This document shows positions 47,925-62,935 of a stretch of DNA of 64,000 nucleotides, piece by piece. Below the pieces are notes generated by a model, which had not been told where the DNA came from, ran no database searches, and was given only the letters and a program-made list of their open reading frames with translations. Positions within the stretch are counted from its first letter, which is position 1. Every line of letters begins with the position of its first letter. A program made the translations under genes and the position numbers. This stretch comes from Candidatus Pacearchaeota archaeon (lineage in GTDB: Archaea > Nanobdellota > Nanobdellia > Pacearchaeales > GW2011-AR1). Location: contig CAXNIJ010000006.1 in the NCBI GenBank assembly GCA_964202455.1, positions 5,184 through 69,183 on the forward strand, written 5' to 3'.

Positions 47925-50132
47925 TTAAGAGTCTATTCTGGGCTTTTTCATCTTAGCTAAGTTAGGATGCCCCCATGCCGCTATTGCAGCGCATTGTTGT
48001 TTAGTGAGTTGGACTCCTTTTCCTTGCAAGTGATTCCAGATATCTTCTACTTCGAATTTTTCCCTTCTGAGTTGGCGGATTTCTTCTTTGACTAATTCTG
48101 AAAGTGGAGCTAACTTTATATCTTTAACTCTATTAGGTTTGAAAGGAACTGCCTCAATAAGAGAAAGTGTATCTCTTACTGATCGATAATGTGCATTAAT
48201 TGTATCAGAAGTAATCTGTCTATTTTTCAGAATATCTGCTCTTAAATCATCAAAGAATGCATAGAGACGAATGTCTTCTATTGGCTGTCTTATATATTCT
48301 TCAAAATTGCTTGCATGAAAAGCTTTTTCTATTCTTTCTTGTTTTGTCTTAGAAAGAGATGCGACTGCTTCATCTACAAAAAACTCTAGTGCTTTTTGAT
48401 GCATTCTTGGTAAATGATTAAAAATCTTAGGTTTGAGAAAATAATGATATTCTTTTCCCTTAAGTTCTTGATGATCTTCTTTTATTTGCTTTTCAGAAAT
48501 ATTTTTTGGAATTTTAAGACCTCCTTGAGTTTTACAAGCTCTTAGAGCGTTAATTTTTCTTTGCATATTTTTGCCAAAGGTATATTGTAGTGCAATTTCA
48601 TCGTCGGATTTTCCTTCAATAACAAACTCTCCCGCCGTTCTTTCGCTTCTCAATAATGGACGATATGCGCTGCCTAGATGTATTCTAGAAGGTTCAATTG
48701 ATCTAAATTTCTCAACGTTCTTCCAGTATTTATTCAATCTATCGCCAAGTTCTTTCGATAACCATTTTTTAAATTTAGAAGTTTCTTTTTTTAGAAGGTC
48801 TATTTCGGGACATTTGTTAAAATACTCATTGGGAATCATTCTTTCTCTAATTAAATATGGTCTATTAATTCCATAAAAGAGTGTCCAATCAGAATTTAAA
48901 ACTTTTTGCAATGTTTGATCAATAAATGGACTTAATTTTGCTACTTTTACTATATCTAACATCATATTGGAATTTTTATTACTGGTATATTGAAATCTAC
49001 AACTCTCTGATTCAGTATATCCTCCAATCCATTCACTATCTAATAATTTTAAAAGTTCATCGAGCTCAGCCTTTTTAAAATAATCTCTGGAAAATTTATT
49101 AAGAAGTATACTTCCCTGATCATACCATTCCTTTTCTTTGTTTAGTTTTTTCTCTTTAATTTGATTAGATATCTCAATCAAATCAGAATAAAAAAGACGA
49201 AACTGTTTGGGATTACCACAGAAACCTAAATTTCTCTGAATTTCACTTAAAGGTTGTTCACCATTATCATGAAAATAATTTCTTTGACATACTTCTGCTA
49301 TAATGTCATCAAACTTAATATCAACTATATTAAATTTTTCATAATCGCGAGTTTCTAAACTGATTCTAACCCAACCAGATATTGCCTTATTTCTTGATAA
49401 TTTGAGATTTTTCTCTGAAAAATGGAGTAATATTTTATTTATTTCTTCTTCATGTGGCTTAAATACTTCATCTCTAATTCTTTCTTTAATAGCCATATAT
49501 TCACTAATACATTCTTCTTTATCTGTGCATTCTAATCTTATCCTTTCAATAAGTGCTTGACGATCTTTATTTTCTTTAAATCTAAATTCTGCCTCTTCGC
49601 TAAGTTGATGGTAGAGAGGATTCTGAAAAACTTCATTACGAAATATCTCTGAAGACATTAGACTGTTTGAATAATTTAGTTTCATTTCTTCATTTTCCCT
49701 CATACCGTATACATTGGTATAAATCATTCCGCCATCGATCAATAATTGATTCTCCGCCATGTGCGCCAAATCCCCCATTACTTTCTTATTTAGTTGACAT
49801 TCATAATCCAGACCACAATAAGTTAATGGGAAAAAATCCTTGTATTCTTCCCATTTATTTGCAAAAAAATCATGAGTCATTGTTGGTACCACTACGATGC
49901 CAGGATTGGCCTGTCTAACTGCCTCTATTTTCTGAGGATCTCCTTCAAGCGCGATCATTCTGTCTCTTCTAAATCCTCTTCTTTCTAAAAGCTGCATTTC
50001 AAGACCATTAGTTGAAGGAAGAAATAATGCAGTCCCATTCCCAATATTTCTTGGAAGATATTTAAGCGTCGCCTTGTAAATCTCATGTCTCGCTTTTGCC
50101 TTTACAGGGTCAGATTCATATGAGTTACTCAT
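47925..50132 (-). CDS. Island paralog P7 (735 aa), last gene of the 7-gene operon: MTase-like N-module, long middle region, C-terminal HTH-like module
   Basis: ALFLPSTNGLE...MIALEGD...YCGLDYECQL...NVYGMRE. Central FQYTSNKNSNMMLDI. C-terminal EEIRQLRREKFEVEDIWNHLQGKGVQLTKQQCAAIAAW. ATGA overlap with the upstream gene; GGAG before the ATG. Confidence 0.8.
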   Translation of the reverse strand: MSNSYESDPVKAKARHEIYKATLKYLPRNIGNGTALFLPSTNGLEMQLLERRGFRRDRMIALEGDPQKIEAVRQANPGIVVVPTMTHDFFANKWEEYKDFFPLTYCGLDYECQLNKKVMGDLAHMAENQLLIDGGMIYTNVYGMRENEEMKLNYSNSLMSSEIFRNEVFQNPLYHQLSEEAEFRFKENKDRQALIERIRLECTDKEECISEYMAIKERIRDEVFKPHEEEINKILLHFSEKNLKLSRNKAISGWVRISLETRDYEKFNIVDIKFDDIIAEVCQRNYFHDNGEQPLSEIQRNLGFCGNPKQFRLFYSDLIEISNQIKEKKLNKEKEWYDQGSILLNKFSRDYFKKAELDELLKLLDSEWIGGYTESESCRFQYTSNKNSNMMLDIVKVAKLSPFIDQTLQKVLNSDWTLFYGINRPYLIRERMIPNEYFNKCPEIDLLKKETSKFKKWLSKELGDRLNKYWKNVEKFRSIEPSRIHLGSAYRPLLRSERTAGEFVIEGKSDDEIALQYTFGKNMQRKINALRACKTQGGLKIPKNISEKQIKEDHQELKGKEYHYFLKPKIFNHLPRMHQKALEFFVDEAVASLSKTKQERIEKAFHASNFEEYIRQPIEDIRLYAFFDDLRADILKNRQITSDTINAHYRSVRDTLSLIEAVPFKPNRVKDIKLAPLSELVKEEIRQLRREKFEVEDIWNHLQGKGVQLTKQQCAAIAAWGHPNLAKMKKPRIDS

Positions 50133-51670
50133 GAAGATATTTCTCCATTATTTTCACGTGTTAGCTGTGCTTTAAACCCTCGCAATTGCGGTAAAGTAAA
50201 AGATGTGGGATAGGCTTCCCAAATCTCCTGAGGAGGAACATTAGAGACAAGATAATCATATACTTGTTCTTTATTGATTTTTTCAACACGAGTATCATCT
50301 TCTGATTCCTCAGTCATTTTTTGCGAGCGATATGTCCCCATAGTAAAATGCGCTTGCCACTGTGGAAGAGGTTTACCTTCCCATCCTCGATAATGTACTT
50401 TCACATATTCAGAATCATGTCCTGACTCTAATTCTTGAATAAATCTTTTTTTGGTGAGTATGGGCTTAGCAGCATTGCCGAGAAATTCTCGTTCTAATTT
50501 TTTGACATCTTCATTAAAATATCTTAAACTTCTGCTATTTTCAGCAACCTCCTGATAATCTATTAATGCTTTTCTTAGAGTATTTAGATTATTTACTCGA
50601 ATTTCATGAGGAAAACCTACAAGACGTGCAACTTCTCGAGCTTTTTTAACAATTTGATAAGGATAACGGAGAAAGTGAATATCGCCAATCATAGGAGATC
50701 CTGATTCTGAAATGTAAGTATATTTTTTACACAACATATCACAAAAGTTTTTATTATCATCGCACGTAGTTATTACTGCATGCTCAATAACTTGTCTCCA
50801 ACCATCATCTTTAATACCTTCACATTCTAAATAATACCTAAATATCTTTCTTGCATTGAGATCTATATAAGAAAGAGCATAAGGATTATATCCTGAAGAT
50901 TTTACTGGATCAGATATGTCGAAATATGCAGAAGGATTTCGAGCAAGTGTTGCTCTTTTAAGTTCTTCTGAAATTTGAGAAAAATCTCCATAAGTCATGT
51001 ACTTTAACATTGTTCTCCTCGTTTTTAGACTCATTCCAGCATATACTGATCTCAGTAGTTCGGTGTAAGAATCTTTTTTAATATCTGCAATAGATTCTCC
51101 TCTATTCTTTTTCTCTATTAAATCATGAGTCATTTTCCCTACTTCGAGCTGTGCACGTTCTGCTTCTTCGATAGTCTTAAGTTGATCATTTTGATATGAT
51201 TGAATTGCCATTCCTGCAATATAATGATTTGAGTTATTTTCTCTCTTTAAGAGATTTGCATGATGAAGAATGAAACTATTTCTCTGTTGTTTACGCAATA
51301 ATTTTATTAATAATAAGAGATCAGTCTCTTCCAAAGGCCCAGTATAATCTAAACTTACCACGTCAAAATCTATTTCTCTCTGTTGAGATACCCAATCCTC
51401 TAAAGTGCCATAGTGCATTTTAATTCCTGTATTTCTCCCCTGAATTGATTCATATATTTTCTTATCCCTCTCTAGACCGATAATATTCTGCGGAGGAATG
51501 CCTCGCGCAAGATACACTCTTTCTGTTTCAGCCATATCAATTCCAGGAAAATGAAGCACGTGAATATCTTTGGGTTTTCTGTATGTTAGAAGAGTAGTAT
51601 CTAGAGTTTGCCCTAAAAGTGCATGCACTTTTGCTTTTGCCCAATCTCCTGCGTAATGTTTGTCGCTCAT
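50129..51670 (-). CDS. Island paralog P6 (513 aa)
   Basis: IHVLHFPGIDMAE...IIGLERD...FDVVSLDYTGPL. YTYISESGSPMIGDI (nt 50678-50722). FLGNAAKPILT. C-terminal EQVYDYLVSNVPPQEIWEAYPTSFTLPQLRGFKAQLTR. ATGA overlaps at both ends. Confidence 0.8.
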   Translation of the reverse strand: MSDKHYAGDWAKAKVHALLGQTLDTTLLTYRKPKDIHVLHFPGIDMAETERVYLARGIPPQNIIGLERDKKIYESIQGRNTGIKMHYGTLEDWVSQQREIDFDVVSLDYTGPLEETDLLLLIKLLRKQQRNSFILHHANLLKRENNSNHYIAGMAIQSYQNDQLKTIEEAERAQLEVGKMTHDLIEKKNRGESIADIKKDSYTELLRSVYAGMSLKTRRTMLKYMTYGDFSQISEELKRATLARNPSAYFDISDPVKSSGYNPYALSYIDLNARKIFRYYLECEGIKDDGWRQVIEHAVITTCDDNKNFCDMLCKKYTYISESGSPMIGDIHFLRYPYQIVKKAREVARLVGFPHEIRVNNLNTLRKALIDYQEVAENSRSLRYFNEDVKKLEREFLGNAAKPILTKKRFIQELESGHDSEYVKVHYRGWEGKPLPQWQAHFTMGTYRSQKMTEESEDDTRVEKINKEQVYDYLVSNVPPQEIWEAYPTSFTLPQLRGFKAQLTRENNGEISS

Positions 51671-62756: not shown

Positions 62757-62935
62757 AATTCCAACAAGTAATTTTAGATAAGAAACCTGTAAGACAAAGT
62801 AAAGAGTTTTTACATCGAATACATTCGTGCCCACAAATTATAAGTGGGCGTAACTTTGACTATCTTGATGGAACTTCAATGAGAAGGAAAACTGATCAAG
62901 ATATGAATCTTGAAAAATATTTAAAACTTAATTAG
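62753..62935 (+). CDS. Small coupled ORF (60 aa)
   Basis: ATGA overlap with protein X. No motif recognised. Confidence 0.4.
   Translation: MKFQQVILDKKPVRQSKEFLHRIHSCPQIISGRNFDYLDGTSMRRKTDQDMNLEKYLKLN

What the first reader, a model, noticed from the sequence alone, without database searches (positions are those of the whole stretch)
47925..62935. 15-kb two-operon island: six MTase-like/HTH paralogs plus a TraB/Tiki-like protein, facing an AAG-like / SNF2-MTase / HTH operon
The block between gap/pgk and fba holds two divergent operons that share a protein module.
- Minus strand (58748 down to 47925): seven ORFs with no intergenic space. Six are mutually homologous large proteins (475-735 aa). 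The seventh is a 206-aa protein with two GxxH motifs.
- Plus strand (58887 to 62935): an AAG/Mpg-fold protein, an SNF2 ATPase fused to a SAM methyltransferase, a 354-aa protein whose N-terminus is the same ~45-aa HTH-like module found at the C-termini of the paralogs, and a coupled 60-aa ORF.
A DNA translocase, a methyltransferase fold, a base-excision fold and many DNA-binding-looking modules are the usual parts of DNA-modification or self/non-self discrimination systems. However, the gene content and the six-fold paralogy do not match any named system I know (type I-IV R-M, BREX, DISARM, Dpd, Druantia, Zorya, Wadjet and others). About 15 kb is a large investment for what looks like a reduced genome. 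The functional proposal, a multi-subunit DNA-marking/discrimination machine, is inference only.
Basis: partly seen in the sequence, partly recalled or inferred. Interest (0 to 1): 0.92.

Follow-up and report, generated by a model that had tools for sequence, protein, structure and literature searches.

The report
DPANN archaeal SNF2-methyltransferase gene island
A 15-kb block in a tiny symbiotic (DPANN) archaeon holds two linked operons of uncharacterised, DNA-directed methyltransferase-like proteins that recur together in related genomes but match no named system, so it is a real and testable piece of genomic dark matter with an unproven function.

Summary
Seven overlapping minus-strand genes (six paralogs and a 206-aa orphan) face a plus-strand operon: AAG-fold protein, SNF2 ATPase fused to a class-I methyltransferase (MTase), and a 354-aa adaptor.

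The host is a DPANN archaeon near Pacearchaeota.

- **Paralogs.** They belong to a large unannotated family (1,223 clusters at 50% identity), almost all in DPANN. An AlphaFold model (pLDDT 85) shows an N-terminal class-I SAM-MTase fold, a helical insert and C-terminal three-helix HTH modules. Some relatives add an HNH nuclease, which points to DNA as substrate.
- **Conserved triad.** AAG-fold + SNF2-MTase + adaptor recurs in 12 distinct DPANN loci. The AAG-like protein lacks the catalytic Glu in all nine loci aligned.
- **Linkage.** A paralog sits beside the triad in 7 of 7 genomes of the close clade, and once inside the operon. It is absent within reach in the distant clade, whose adaptors use other DNA-binding repeats.
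- **Known systems.** PADLOC profiles match only the SNF2 domain. No viral or plasmid copies were found.

Best reading: a lineage-specific, DNA-targeted methylation/translocation complex, R-M-like or epigenetic. The function is inferred, not shown. The TraB/Tiki label could not be tested. The "60-aa ORF" is half of a gene with an in-frame TAG.

The parts
47925..50132 (-). Paralog A (735 aa). N-terminal MTase-like domain (motif I Gly replaced by Ser), a long unique middle region, and a C-terminal 160 aa shared with D624, ending in a type-2 HTH module (aa 681-730 = 47943-48092).
   Evidence: No ortholog other than itself among the best 150 family hits.
50129..51670 (-). Paralog B (513 aa), the 'mainstream' DPANN subtype. 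Class-I SAM-MTase fold (aa ~30-145 plus the beta6-7 hairpin YTYISESGSPM at 317), a helical insert (aa ~149-303), and two HTH modules (aa 401-445 and 463-505).
   Evidence: AlphaFold model with pLDDT 84.9 and pTM 0.83. Foldseek PDB hits to SAM-MTases, E 3e-4. 74 of the best 150 family hits are B-type. Modules.
51667..53208 (-). Paralog C (513 aa), sister of B (33% identity over the full length), with two HTH modules (aa 406-448 and 464-505).
53205..53825 (-). 206-aa protein with two GxxH motifs (GVSH aa 13-16, GAQH aa 154-157). Function unknown.
   Evidence: No Pfam, PHROG, PADLOC, NCBIfam or PDB match. Only itself in the 5.8-billion-protein word search. A partial ortholog (58% identity over 115 aa) sits in the same operon position in L128. 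AF2 model unusable, pLDDT 41.
53822..55696 (-). Paralog D (624 aa). MTase-like N-terminus and a C-terminal 160 aa that is 57% identical to A735, with a type-2 HTH module (aa 563-613).
   Evidence: Orthologs at 51% identity in L041 and L128.
55696..57123 (-). Paralog E (475 aa), with one C-terminal HTH module (aa 426-463).
   Evidence: Orthologs at 62% (L041), 50% (L128) and 41% (L037) identity. 44 of the best 150 family hits are E-type.
57120..58748 (-). Paralog F (542 aa), first gene of the minus operon, with a C-terminal HTH module (aa 496-531). F-type relatives elsewhere carry a C-terminal HNH nuclease, which is absent here.
58749..58886 (.). 138-bp divergent intergenic region. TTTATAAA at 58858-58865 is centred ~26 nt upstream of the AAG-like ATG, which fits an archaeal TATA box with a leaderless transcript (inference).
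   Evidence: Sequence read. The promoter reading rests on general knowledge of archaeal promoters and was not tested.
58887..59348 (+). AAG/MPG-fold protein (153 aa) without the catalytic Glu. Compared with human AAG: E125->G, H136->D, Y159->M, Y162->R; Y127 and N169 are kept.
   Evidence: Pfam Pur_DNA_glyco 36.2 bits. NCBIfam equivalog cut-offs not reached. Alignment to 1BNK. G or A at the E125 position in all 9 loci aligned, window included.
59357..61699 (+). SNF2 ATPase (aa 1-465, 59357-60751) fused to a class-I SAM methyltransferase (aa ~520-720, 60914-61516). ATPase motifs are intact (GMGKC, DEGH, QR..R..R) and the MTase motif I is DIxxGPFSLSR.
   Evidence: best PDB match is Sulfolobus SNF2, 1Z63; invariant columns in 14 orthologs; the MTase domain resembles generic Methyltransf_11 structures.
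61692..62756 (+). Adaptor protein (354 aa). Two HTH modules (aa 8-57 and 113-153) plus a conserved ~175-aa C-terminal domain that defines the adaptor family.
   Evidence: The C-terminal domain has no Pfam or PDB match. Adaptor genes flank the SNF2-MTase gene in every locus found.
62753..63121 (+). Small gene of ~122 codons, translationally coupled to the adaptor and interrupted by an in-frame TAG at 62933-62935.
   Evidence: Translation through the stop aligns along its length with the 135-aa L127 ortholog, which has Trp at the TAG position.

Best explanation
The island is a chromosomal, vertically inherited gene neighbourhood of a DPANN (Pacearchaeota-like) archaeon. It encodes a DNA-directed methylation and translocation apparatus made of two linked modules.

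**Module 1 (plus strand), a conserved triad.**
- A SNF2 double-strand-DNA translocase fused to a class-I SAM methyltransferase.
- One to three 'adaptor' proteins. Their conserved C-terminal domain probably docks on the enzyme. Their variable N-terminal DNA-binding arrays (HTH modules here, homing-endonuclease-type repeats elsewhere) probably choose the DNA sites.
- An AAG-fold protein that has lost the water-activating Glu. It most likely binds or flips a base rather than excising it.

**Module 2 (minus strand).** Six paralogs of a DPANN-restricted family. Each has a catalytically plausible class-I methyltransferase domain with a large helical insert (a likely target-recognition domain) and the same HTH module as the adaptor.

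**Proposed working.**
1. HTH modules and adaptors bring the enzymes to DNA.
2. The SNF2 motor moves along or opens the duplex.
3. The methyltransferase domains mark DNA, or possibly DNA-bound protein.
4. The AAG-fold protein reads the state of a base.

The biological role is probably R-M-like or epigenetic marking.

**Shown:** gene order, paralogy, folds, motif conservation, conserved linkage.
**Inferred:** substrate, complex formation, role.
For: **Paralog fold and family**
- The B513 model has a class-I MTase Rossmann fold. Conserved residues sit at the canonical motif positions: G43 after beta1, E67 at the end of beta2, E91, D108 after beta4. The beta6-7 hairpin carries the invariant Y-x-Y-x-S...P-M motif.
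- The C-terminal modules give recurrent weak hits to homeodomain-like HTH families. DUF433 hits 11 of 30 and 9 of 30 members; HTH_23, HTH_7 and Sigma70_r4 also appear.
- Six family members from B-, E- and F-type lineages end in a canonical CxxC...HVHHID...N...HH HNH nuclease. One ends in a radical-SAM domain. This implies nucleic-acid, most simply DNA, substrates.

**Triad**
- AAG-fold + SNF2-MTase + adaptor is present in every one of 12 distinct loci, in different genomic contexts.
- The SNF2 ATPase motifs and the MTase motifs are invariant in 14 orthologs.

**Linkage of the two modules**
- A paralog lies adjacent to the triad in 7 of 7 genomes of the clade with at least 55% SNF2-MTase identity. 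The adjacent paralog type differs between genomes (F, E/D, B, C).
- One paralog lies inside the plus operon in L128, with overlapping stops and starts.
- Adaptors carry the paralog-type HTH module only in that clade.

**Operon structure**
- Tight translational coupling in both operons.
Against: - No modification, DNA binding or complex formation has been measured.
- The paralog motif after beta4 (LD[YF]xGP) is not the (D/N/S)PP(Y/F/W) of known DNA amino-methyltransferases. The SNF2-fused MTase is a Methyltransf_11 type, more typical of small-molecule, protein or RNA methylation.
- The B-type paralog is usually a lone gene with no conserved neighbours. The family (1,223 clusters) is far commoner than the SNF2-MTase (about 15 clusters). 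So the family's core function does not need the triad.
- The triad occurs without nearby paralogs in the distant clade.
- No effector nuclease is present in this island.
- G+C content equals that of the rest of the window, and there are no mobile-element flanks. This does not fit a typical recently acquired defence island.
Confidence: 0.45

Rival explanations
1. These are two unrelated neighbours. The paralogs are housekeeping RNA (tRNA or rRNA) or protein methyltransferases of DPANN archaea. The AAG/SNF2-MTase/adaptor triad is a separate DNA-repair or remodelling unit. Their adjacency is historical accident within one clade.
For: - B-type genes are stand-alone in about 20 DPANN genomes, with no conserved neighbours.
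- A four-paralog array in L026 lies next to a tRNA dihydrouridine synthase gene and a small methyltransferase gene.
- The triad exists without paralogs within 10 kb in L043, L045 and L047/L129, and within the shorter L132 contig.
- The closest structural matches include the RNA methyltransferases RsmD/YhhF, TrmN and fibrillarin.
Against: - Adjacency holds in 7 of 7 genomes of the close clade although the flanking genes differ (fba, EF-2/S7/S12, TFIIE/AlaRS and others) and the adjacent paralog type differs.
- An E-type paralog is embedded between the SNF2-MTase and adaptor genes in L128.
- The adaptor shares the paralogs' HTH module.
- HNH-nuclease fusions in three subfamilies point to DNA, not RNA.
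Confidence: 0.2
2. It is an anti-virus or anti-plasmid defence system of a new type. Sequence-specific methyltransferases mark self DNA. The SNF2-MTase with its adaptors scans DNA. The AAG-fold protein or the 206-aa protein is the effector against unmarked DNA.
For: - The parts list resembles DISARM, BREX, Dpd and type I R-M systems (motor + methyltransferase + specificity subunits).
- The best profile hits of the SNF2 domain are defence helicases: ZorD 9e-32, DpdE 1.5e-19, DrmD 1e-12.
- Distribution is patchy, about 15 clusters of the SNF2-MTase. Adaptor number and DNA-binding arrays vary, as specificity subunits do.
- HNH fusions occur in relatives.
- A type I R-M system and an IS element lie next to the locus in L041.
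Against: - No PADLOC model other than SNF2 helicases matches.
- There is no recognisable nuclease or other toxic effector here.
- The AAG-fold protein lacks the catalytic Glu.
- The island is syntenic with the fba gene in the nearest relative, L127, and its composition is that of the host.
- No copies were found on viral contigs, phages or plasmids, although DPANN mobile elements are poorly sampled.
Confidence: 0.2
3. It is a DNA-damage surveillance and repair pathway. The inactive AAG-fold protein senses alkylated or otherwise altered bases, in the way alkyltransferase-like (ATL) proteins do. It recruits the SNF2 translocase, in the way CSB/Rad26 or Mfd act. This would compensate for lost repair pathways in a reduced genome.
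For: - The AAG fold keeps DNA- and base-contacting positions (Y127, N169, the R-x-G-M segment) but has lost the water-activating Glu in all nine loci aligned.
- It is strictly coupled to a SNF2 ATPase in every locus.
- An Endo IV-like (AP_endonuc_2) gene lies between the paralog array and the triad in L037.
Against: - It does not explain the fused methyltransferase, the variable DNA-binding adaptors or the linked methyltransferase paralogs.
- The Endo IV-like neighbour is seen once only.
- The triad is rare among DPANN, which is unexpected for a core repair function.
Confidence: 0.1

Closest known systems
DISARM (DrmA/B/C, SNF2-like DrmD, methyltransferase DrmMI/MII) and BREX (PglX methyltransferase with BrxH helicases)
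   Same: A multi-gene operon that combines an SNF2-type ATPase with SAM methyltransferase(s). The SNF2 domain matches DrmD profiles (E 1e-12) and BrxH profiles (1e-7).
   Different: - There are no DrmA, DrmB, DrmC, PglZ, BrxC or BrxL counterparts. Nine of the ten proteins scanned match no PADLOC model (the coupled small ORF was not scanned).
- The methyltransferases are not of the N6-adenine or C5-cytosine DNA type.
- An AAG-fold protein and HTH adaptors are present, and neither system has these.
Type I / type ISP restriction-modification systems
   Same: The logic matches: an ATP-driven DNA motor, a methyltransferase, and separate or variable target-recognition parts. The adaptors pair a variable DNA-binding part with a constant domain, as HsdS subunits do. 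Some relatives of the paralogs end in an HNH nuclease.
   Different: The motor is SNF2, not HsdR/ResIII-type. The methyltransferase lacks the NPPY/DPPY motif. There is no nuclease in this island. There is no sequence similarity to HsdM or HsdS.
Dpd (7-deazaguanine DNA modification) system: DpdA transglycosylase with the SNF2-like DpdE
   Same: A base-excision or base-exchange fold protein is coupled to an SNF2 helicase. The SNF2 domain hits DpdE profiles (1.5e-19; NCBIfam 5.5e-16).
   Different: There are no DpdA, DpdB or DpdC homologs and no queuosine-precursor genes. The base-handling protein has an AAG fold, not a TGT fold.
Human AAG / bacterial 3-methyladenine DNA glycosylase (Pur_DNA_glyco, PF02245)
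   Same: Same fold family (36 bits against a cut-off of 27). The Y127 and N169 equivalents are conserved.
   Different: - It is shorter (153 aa against about 200).
- The catalytic E125 is replaced by Gly or Ala in all nine loci aligned.
- H136, Y159 and the intercalating Y162 are not conserved.
- It scores far below the NCBIfam equivalog cut-offs.
- By analogy with ATL proteins and S. pombe Mag2 (from memory), it may be a sensor rather than an enzyme.
Sulfolobus solfataricus SNF2/Rad54-like ATPase core (PDB 1Z63) and eukaryotic remodellers
   Same: It is the best solved-structure match of the ATPase half (E 1.6e-16, residues 5-464). All helicase motifs are present.
   Different: Here the ATPase is fused to a C-terminal methyltransferase and is always encoded with the AAG-fold and adaptor genes. 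No chromo, SANT or HSA accessory domains are present.
Class-I SAM methyltransferases with a DPPF/DPPY-type site (RsmD/YhhF 2FPO, HI0767 2IFT, TrmN 3TMA) and PmtA (9KO3)
   Same: These are the top Foldseek matches of the paralog N-terminal domain (E 3e-4 to 1e-2, about 110-140 aligned residues, rmsd 2.2-3.4 Å for PmtA, RsmD/YhhF and HI0767, 4.4 Å for TrmN). The placement of conserved acidic residues after beta2 and beta4 is the same.
   Different: - There is no detectable sequence similarity: the PDB profile search is empty and no Pfam family reaches its cut-off.
- A 150-aa helical insert lies between beta5 and beta6.
- HTH tails are present.
- The motif after beta4 is LD[YF]xGP.

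Membership tests
SNF2 family ATPase (780-aa protein, N-terminal half) | SNF2-related N-lobe and Helicase_C lobe with Walker A, DExH and motif VI arginines | tested here: met
   PF00176 at 102 bits (cut-off 24.9) and PF00271 at 41.8 bits. GMGKC, DEGH and QR..R..R are invariant in 14 orthologs.
Class-I SAM methyltransferase (780-aa protein, C-terminal part) | Rossmann-type SAM-binding domain above the Pfam threshold | tested here: met
   Methyltransf_11 at 34 bits (cut-off 21.2). A profile of 10 orthologs hits the SAM-MTase structures 1VLM, 1XXL and 3SM3.
DNA amino- or C5-methyltransferases (780-aa protein and the paralogs) | Catalytic motif IV: (D/N/S)PP(Y/F/W), or the PC dipeptide with the ENV motif | tested here: not met
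   After beta4 the SNF2-fused domain has CSLALH and the paralogs have LD[YF]xGP/Q. No N6_Mtase, N6_N4_Mtase, MethyltransfD12 or DNA_methylase Pfam hit.
Alkyladenine/3-methyladenine DNA glycosylase (AAG/MPG) | Pur_DNA_glyco fold | tested here: met
   PF02245 at 36.2 bits (cut-off 27), profile positions 1-95 of 181. phmmer to 1BNK, E 0.003.
Alkyladenine/3-methyladenine DNA glycosylase (AAG/MPG) | Catalytic Glu (human E125) that activates the hydrolytic water, and the intercalating Tyr162 | tested here: not met
   E125 is replaced by G or A in the window protein and in 8 orthologs. Y162->R, H136->D and Y159->M in the window protein. NCBIfam TIGR00567 scores 36 bits against a cut-off of 116.
Class-I SAM methyltransferase fold (six paralogs) | Seven-stranded Rossmann-like sheet with conserved residues at motifs I-IV | tested here: met
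   AF2 model of B513 with pLDDT 84.9 and pTM 0.83. Foldseek probability 1.0 and E 3e-4 to SAM-MTases over about 110-140 residues. G43, E67, D103 and D108 are invariant in 30 B/C-type members. The E and D are retained in all six paralogs. SAM binding itself was not tested.
Helix-turn-helix (homeodomain-like) DNA-binding module (paralog C-termini, adaptor N-terminus) | Three-helix module recognisable by HTH profiles | tested here: inconclusive
   The model shows three-helix units. There are recurrent sub-threshold hits: DUF433 in 11 of 30 and 9 of 30 members (best E 1.2e-4), plus HTH_23, HTH_7 and Sigma70_r4. None reaches a Pfam cut-off.
TraB/PrgY/GumN/Tiki superfamily (206-aa protein) | Two GxxH motifs in the erythromycin-esterase-like fold, with conserved Glu/Arg | tested here: inconclusive
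   Two GxxH motifs are present, and the first is conserved in the L128 ortholog. No PF01963 or any other profile hit. No PDB hit. The AF2 single-sequence model has pLDDT 41, so no fold comparison was possible.
Named anti-phage defence systems (PADLOC-DB v2: R-M, BREX, DISARM, Dpd, Zorya, Druantia and others) | Presence of the system's signature proteins | tested here: not met
   Of ten island proteins, only the SNF2 domain matches (ZorD, DpdE, DrmD, BrxH helicase models). None of their partner proteins has a counterpart. The rule-based PADLOC and DefenseFinder system calls were not run.

The most novel reading that the evidence does not exclude
The island encodes a previously unknown kind of DNA-marking machine confined to DPANN archaea.
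- A new class of DNA methyltransferases (catalytic motif LD[YF]xGP instead of DPPY) supplies several sequence specificities.
- An SNF2 motor fused to a second methyltransferase is steered by exchangeable DNA-binding adaptors.
- A rewired AAG-fold protein without the hydrolytic Glu reads, or even exchanges, the marked base.

Together these would form an R-M-like or epigenetic system with no nuclease.
Probability: 0.2. Interest if true: 0.85.

Novelty: new variant of a known kind. Interest (0 to 1): 0.62.

Why it matters
- **Biological gap.** DPANN archaea are abundant, uncultured symbionts with tiny genomes. Genes they keep in six copies and 15 kb are unlikely to be idle.
- **A large unannotated family.** The paralog family has at least 1,223 clusters at 50% identity and no Pfam, NCBIfam or PDB relative by sequence. 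A confident model now shows a methyltransferase fold with DNA-binding tails and, in some lineages, an HNH nuclease. That gives a concrete biochemical hypothesis for a large block of archaeal dark matter.
- **A defined triad.** The strictly conserved AAG-fold (catalytic Glu lost) + SNF2-methyltransferase + variable-adaptor set is a clean, small target for expression and methylome work.
- **Possible pay-off.** If it marks DNA, it would add a new enzyme class and a new motor-coupled modification system. It could also yield new sequence-specific DNA-modifying tools.

Tried and rejected
- **Sequence profile libraries.** Pfam, PHROGs, PADLOC and NCBIfam on all island proteins gave nothing for the paralogs, the 206-aa protein or the adaptor.
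- **PDB sequence searches.** Profiles of the paralogs (A1, A2), the adaptor family (A3) and the 206-aa protein gave nothing significant.
- **Word-indexed homology searches.** The paralog alignment and the 206-aa protein returned only themselves. Only the exhaustive HMMER search revealed the family.
- **Foldseek on the B513 model.** Against PDB and viral structures, only the generic methyltransferase fold of the N-terminal ~140 residues matched. The insert and the tails matched nothing.
- **AlphaFold of the 206-aa protein.** Without homologs it failed (pLDDT 41), so I did not search with that model.
- **Metagenome scan with the SNF2-MTase alignment.** It chose generic SNF2 motifs and returned 79 unrelated SNF2 genes and one true ortholog.
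- **Mobile-element searches.** Viral-contig scans for the paralog family and for the SNF2-fused methyltransferase found none. tblastn of B513 against GenBank phages and PLSDB plasmids found none.
- **Literature searches.** Searches on DPANN/SNF2/methyltransferase, on SNF2 + methylpurine glycosylase operons, and on PF20553 found no description of this system.
- **Rejected: CPR bacterial origin.** The EF-2 fragment is 83% and 79% identical to archaeal contigs, and ortholog contigs carry TFIIB, TFIIE, aEF1A, L37e and PolD.
- **Rejected: recent horizontal island.** G+C and skew match the rest of the window, and synteny with fba is shared with L127.
- **Rejected: DNA repeats as a feature of their own.** They only mirror the protein paralogy.

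Full report
**1. What is in the sequence**

On the minus strand there are seven genes:

| Gene | Coordinates | Length |
|---|---|---|
| F | 57120-58748 | 542 aa |
| E | 55696-57123 | 475 aa |
| D | 53822-55696 | 624 aa |
| 206-aa gene | 53205-53825 | 206 aa |
| C | 51667-53208 | 513 aa |
| B | 50129-51670 | 513 aa |
| A | 47925-50132 | 735 aa |

Every junction overlaps by 1-4 nt.

After a 138-bp divergent spacer, the plus strand carries four genes:

| Gene | Coordinates | Length |
|---|---|---|
| AAG-like | 58887-59348 | 153 aa |
| SNF2-methyltransferase | 59357-61699 | 780 aa |
| Adaptor | 61692-62756 | 354 aa |
| Coupled small ORF | from 62753 | see section 5 |

BLASTP among the six large proteins gives E-values from 1e-7 to 1e-81, so the paralogy is real. 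G+C content and skew are those of the rest of the window.

Flanking genes are TM2/DUF2752, gap, pgk and groES/EL on the left, and class II fba on the right.

**2. Whose genome**

No archaeal signature gene lies in the window itself. The evidence for a DPANN archaeon comes from relatives.
- The EF-2 fragment at 6-884 is 83% identical to the EF-2 of contig L041, which also carries aEF1A, CDC48, S7 and S12. It is 79% identical to a Candidatus Pacearchaeota MAG.
- RtcB, TyrRS and a DEAD-box helicase are 57-69% identical to genes in Nanoarchaeota and Woesearchaeota MAGs.
- Contigs carrying orthologs of the island genes encode TFIIB, TFIIE-alpha, L37e, S8e, L7Ae, LSM and PolD.

The host is therefore a DPANN archaeon with many bacterial-type genes (GroEL, NrdR, an AddA-like helicase-nuclease).

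**3. The paralog family**

*Annotation status.* Pfam, PHROGs, PADLOC, NCBIfam and PDB sequence searches find nothing.

*Size and distribution.* An exhaustive profile search of 1.84 billion representative proteins finds 1,223 clusters at E<=1e-3 and 397 at E<=1e-30. All named ones are 'hypothetical'. In GTDB genomes, about 30 of 38 confirmed loci are in archaeal, almost all DPANN, MAGs (Woese-, Pace-, Nano-, Micrarchaeota; four are labelled Methanosarcinales and two only 'archaeon'), and seven are in bins labelled bacterial.

*Subfamilies.* The six window paralogs represent old subfamilies, each with its own orthologs elsewhere. Among the best 150 hits, 74 are B-type, 44 E-type, 13 C-type, 11 F-type and 10 D-type. 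A735 has no ortholog. B-type genes are typically single and stand-alone, with no conserved neighbours.

*Structure.* An AlphaFold model of B513, built with 30 family members, is confident (pLDDT 84.9, pTM 0.83). It shows:
- an N-terminal helix;
- a Rossmann sheet (beta1 38-40, beta2 63-67, beta3 84-87, beta4 104-108, beta5 132-140);
- a ~150-residue helical insert;
- the beta6-beta7 hairpin (310-335) that carries the family's signature Y-S-Y-I-S-E-S-G-x-P-M-I-G-D;
- two three-helix modules at the C-terminus.

Foldseek matches only the N-terminal ~110-140 residues. The hits are SAM methyltransferases: PmtA (E 3e-4), RsmD/YhhF, HI0767, fibrillarin and TrmN. Against viral structures the matches are again generic.

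*Active-site positions.* Invariant residues fall where class-I enzymes bind SAM and substrate: G43 in the loop after beta1, E67 at the end of beta2, and D108 after beta4. The Glu and Asp are kept in all six window paralogs; A735 has lost the Gly. The post-beta4 motif LD[YF]xGP is not the DPPY/NPPY of DNA amino-methyltransferases.

*C-terminal modules.* They give recurrent sub-threshold hits to homeodomain-like HTH families (DUF433 in 11 of 30 and 9 of 30 members, plus HTH_23, HTH_7 and Sigma70_r4). They come in two sequence types:
- 'KAHxTMGTY' in B, C, E and F, and in adaptor residues 113-153;
- 'EEIRxLR...QCxAIAAW' in A and D, and in adaptor residues 8-57.

The two types are homologous (hhalign 92%, E 5e-7).

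*Fusions.* Five of the best 150 representatives (P0091, P0093, P0094, P0097, P0109) and the Woesearchaeota gene in L040 end in a canonical zinc-finger HNH nuclease (C-Q-x-P-x-C ... H-V-H-H-I-D ... N ... H-H). These come from F-, B- and E-type lineages. P0118 ends in a radical-SAM domain. A recurrent methyltransferase-HTH-HNH architecture is the strongest indication that the family acts on DNA. None of the window paralogs has the HNH domain.

**4. The plus-strand triad**

*SNF2-methyltransferase.*
- The 780-aa protein is a complete SNF2 ATPase. Its best solved relative is the Sulfolobus SNF2 core 1Z63 (E 1.6e-16).
- It is fused to a Methyltransf_11-type domain whose nearest structures are generic SAM methyltransferases.
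- About 15 orthologs (37-75% identity, all ~780 aa) exist; the two that carry names are from Nanoarchaeota/DPANN. Below them, similarity drops to ordinary SNF2 proteins.
- ATPase and methyltransferase motifs are invariant among 14 of them.

*Locus structure.* In all 12 distinct loci recovered, the gene is preceded by the AAG-like gene and flanked by one to three genes of the adaptor family.

*Adaptors.* They share a ~175-residue C-terminal domain with no known relative. Their N-termini vary:
- paralog-type HTH modules in the window's clade;
- arrays of homing-endonuclease-associated repeats (faint HNH_repeat hits) or other HTH arrays in the distant clade.

This 'constant dock + variable DNA binder' layout resembles specificity subunits.

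*AAG-like protein.* It passes the Pfam threshold for the fold. However, alignment with human AAG shows E125->G, H136->D, Y159->M and Y162->R. All nine loci aligned (the window and eight relatives) have G or A at the E125 position, while Y127 and N169 are kept. It is thus a conserved but hydrolytically disabled, or rewired, member of the fold.

**5. Are the two operons one unit?**

In the seven genomes whose SNF2-MTase is at least 55% identical, a paralog lies next to the triad every time.

| Locus | Arrangement |
|---|---|
| Window | Six-paralog array facing the triad |
| L127 | F-type directly upstream of and divergent from the AAG-like gene |
| L128 | D- and E-types (plus the 206-aa ortholog), directly upstream and divergent |
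| L041 | E- and D-types, directly upstream and divergent |
| L130 | B-type, directly upstream and divergent |
| L131 | C/B-type, directly upstream and divergent |
| L037 | Four-paralog array ~2 kb away |

The outer flanking genes differ between these genomes. In L128 a further E-type paralog lies between the SNF2-MTase and adaptor genes, with overlapping stops and starts.

In the four loci of the 38-44% clade (L043, L045, L047/L129, L132), no paralog lies within the sequence available, and the adaptors lack the paralog-type module.

So the linkage is conserved and co-varies with the shared HTH module, which argues for a functional connection. But it is clade-specific. The family as a whole (B-type above all) clearly works without the triad.

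The 206-aa protein has one partial ortholog, in the same operon position in L128 (58% identity, first GxxH conserved).

The '60-aa ORF' continues in frame through a TAG at 62933-62935 to 63121. Over this length it matches the 135-aa L127 ortholog, which has Trp at that codon. A TGG->TAG change is the simplest explanation, from pseudogenisation, strain variation or a sequencing error.

**6. Comparison with known systems**

- PADLOC profiles match only the SNF2 domain (ZorD 9e-32, DpdE, DrmD, BrxH). None of the partner proteins of those systems is present.
- The locus shares its logic (motor + methyltransferase + variable DNA-recognition parts) with type I/ISP R-M systems, DISARM and BREX. It shares the pairing of a base-handling fold with an SNF2 helicase with Dpd. 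It fails the membership test for each of them.
- No copy was found on IMG/VR viral contigs, GenBank phages or PLSDB plasmids.
- No paper in the library describes it.

**7. Verdict**

This is a conserved, unnamed, DNA-directed methyltransferase/SNF2 neighbourhood. Whether it marks DNA, discriminates self from non-self, senses damage or remodels chromatin is not shown.

I rank the readings as follows:
- a DNA-targeted methylation/translocation complex, R-M-like or epigenetic: 0.45;
- a bona fide defence system: 0.2;
- unrelated neighbours: 0.2;
- damage surveillance: 0.1.

I class it as a new variant of a known kind (motor-plus-methyltransferase DNA systems), built largely from a protein family that has no annotation at all.

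Noticed in passing
window 62753-63121 (TAG at 62933-62935): The small gene coupled to the adaptor is split by an in-frame TAG where the L127 ortholog has Trp (TGG). Translation through the stop stays homologous to the end. It could be a pseudogene, a strain variant, a sequencing error or read-through.
   Followed up: partly
P0091, P0093, P0094, P0097, P0109 (family representatives) and L040:9989-11788: Members of the paralog family from three subfamilies carry a C-terminal zinc-finger HNH nuclease domain. P0118 (1002 aa) carries a C-terminal radical-SAM domain instead.
   Followed up: partly
L128:9320-10903: A 527-aa protein with clear sigma-70 region 2 and region 4 domains (E 5e-11 and 4e-18) lies just downstream of the triad on a DPANN-type contig. 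A bacterial-type sigma factor is unexpected in an archaeon.
   Followed up: no
L002:3136-11620: In one archaeal contig the stand-alone B-type gene lies directly downstream of the cdc6/orc1 - PolD small subunit - PolD large subunit cluster, which is a likely replication-origin region.
   Followed up: no
L037 (AlinenSediments bin-4957), between the paralog array and the triad; coordinates as: An AP_endonuc_2 (Endo IV/xylose-isomerase-like TIM barrel) gene and a 365-aa gene with no Pfam match lie between the four-paralog array and the adaptor-SNF2-AAG genes. The same genome has a second array (C, C, B) on another contig (L006).
   Followed up: partly
window 43092-44973, 34616-35059, 31737-34619, 19037-22096: Bacterial-type genes are present in this archaeal genome: groES/groEL, an NrdR repressor next to a B12-dependent ribonucleotide reductase, and a 1019-aa UvrD-helicase/PD-(D/E)XK nuclease (AddA-like).
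   Followed up: no
window 22766-23623: A 285-aa rve-family integrase (IS element transposase) is the only mobile-element gene seen in the window. It lies 24 kb from the island.
   Followed up: no
window 3652-5679, 6917-7477, 9522-10493: Possible host-interaction genes: a 675-aa protein with an alpha-2-macroglobulin MG2 domain, a phage-lysozyme-like 186-aa protein, and a matrixin/astacin-like metalloprotease with a CARDB domain.
   Followed up: no
window 7545-9531: RtcB tRNA ligase and its activator archease lie next to each other on the minus strand.
   Followed up: no
L034:1842-3629 and L038:143-1966: Bins labelled Peribacteria and Peregrinibacteria (CPR bacteria) encode ~600-aa proteins whose N-terminal ~105 residues are 35% identical to the paralogs' methyltransferase domain. 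The domain may therefore not be strictly archaeal, or the contigs may be mis-binned.
   Followed up: no
window 53205-53909: The 206-aa gene could start 28 codons further upstream (234 aa from the first ATG). That would overlap the end of paralog D by 88 nt. The 206-aa start gives the usual 4-nt ATGA overlap and is the one used by public gene calls.
   Followed up: yes
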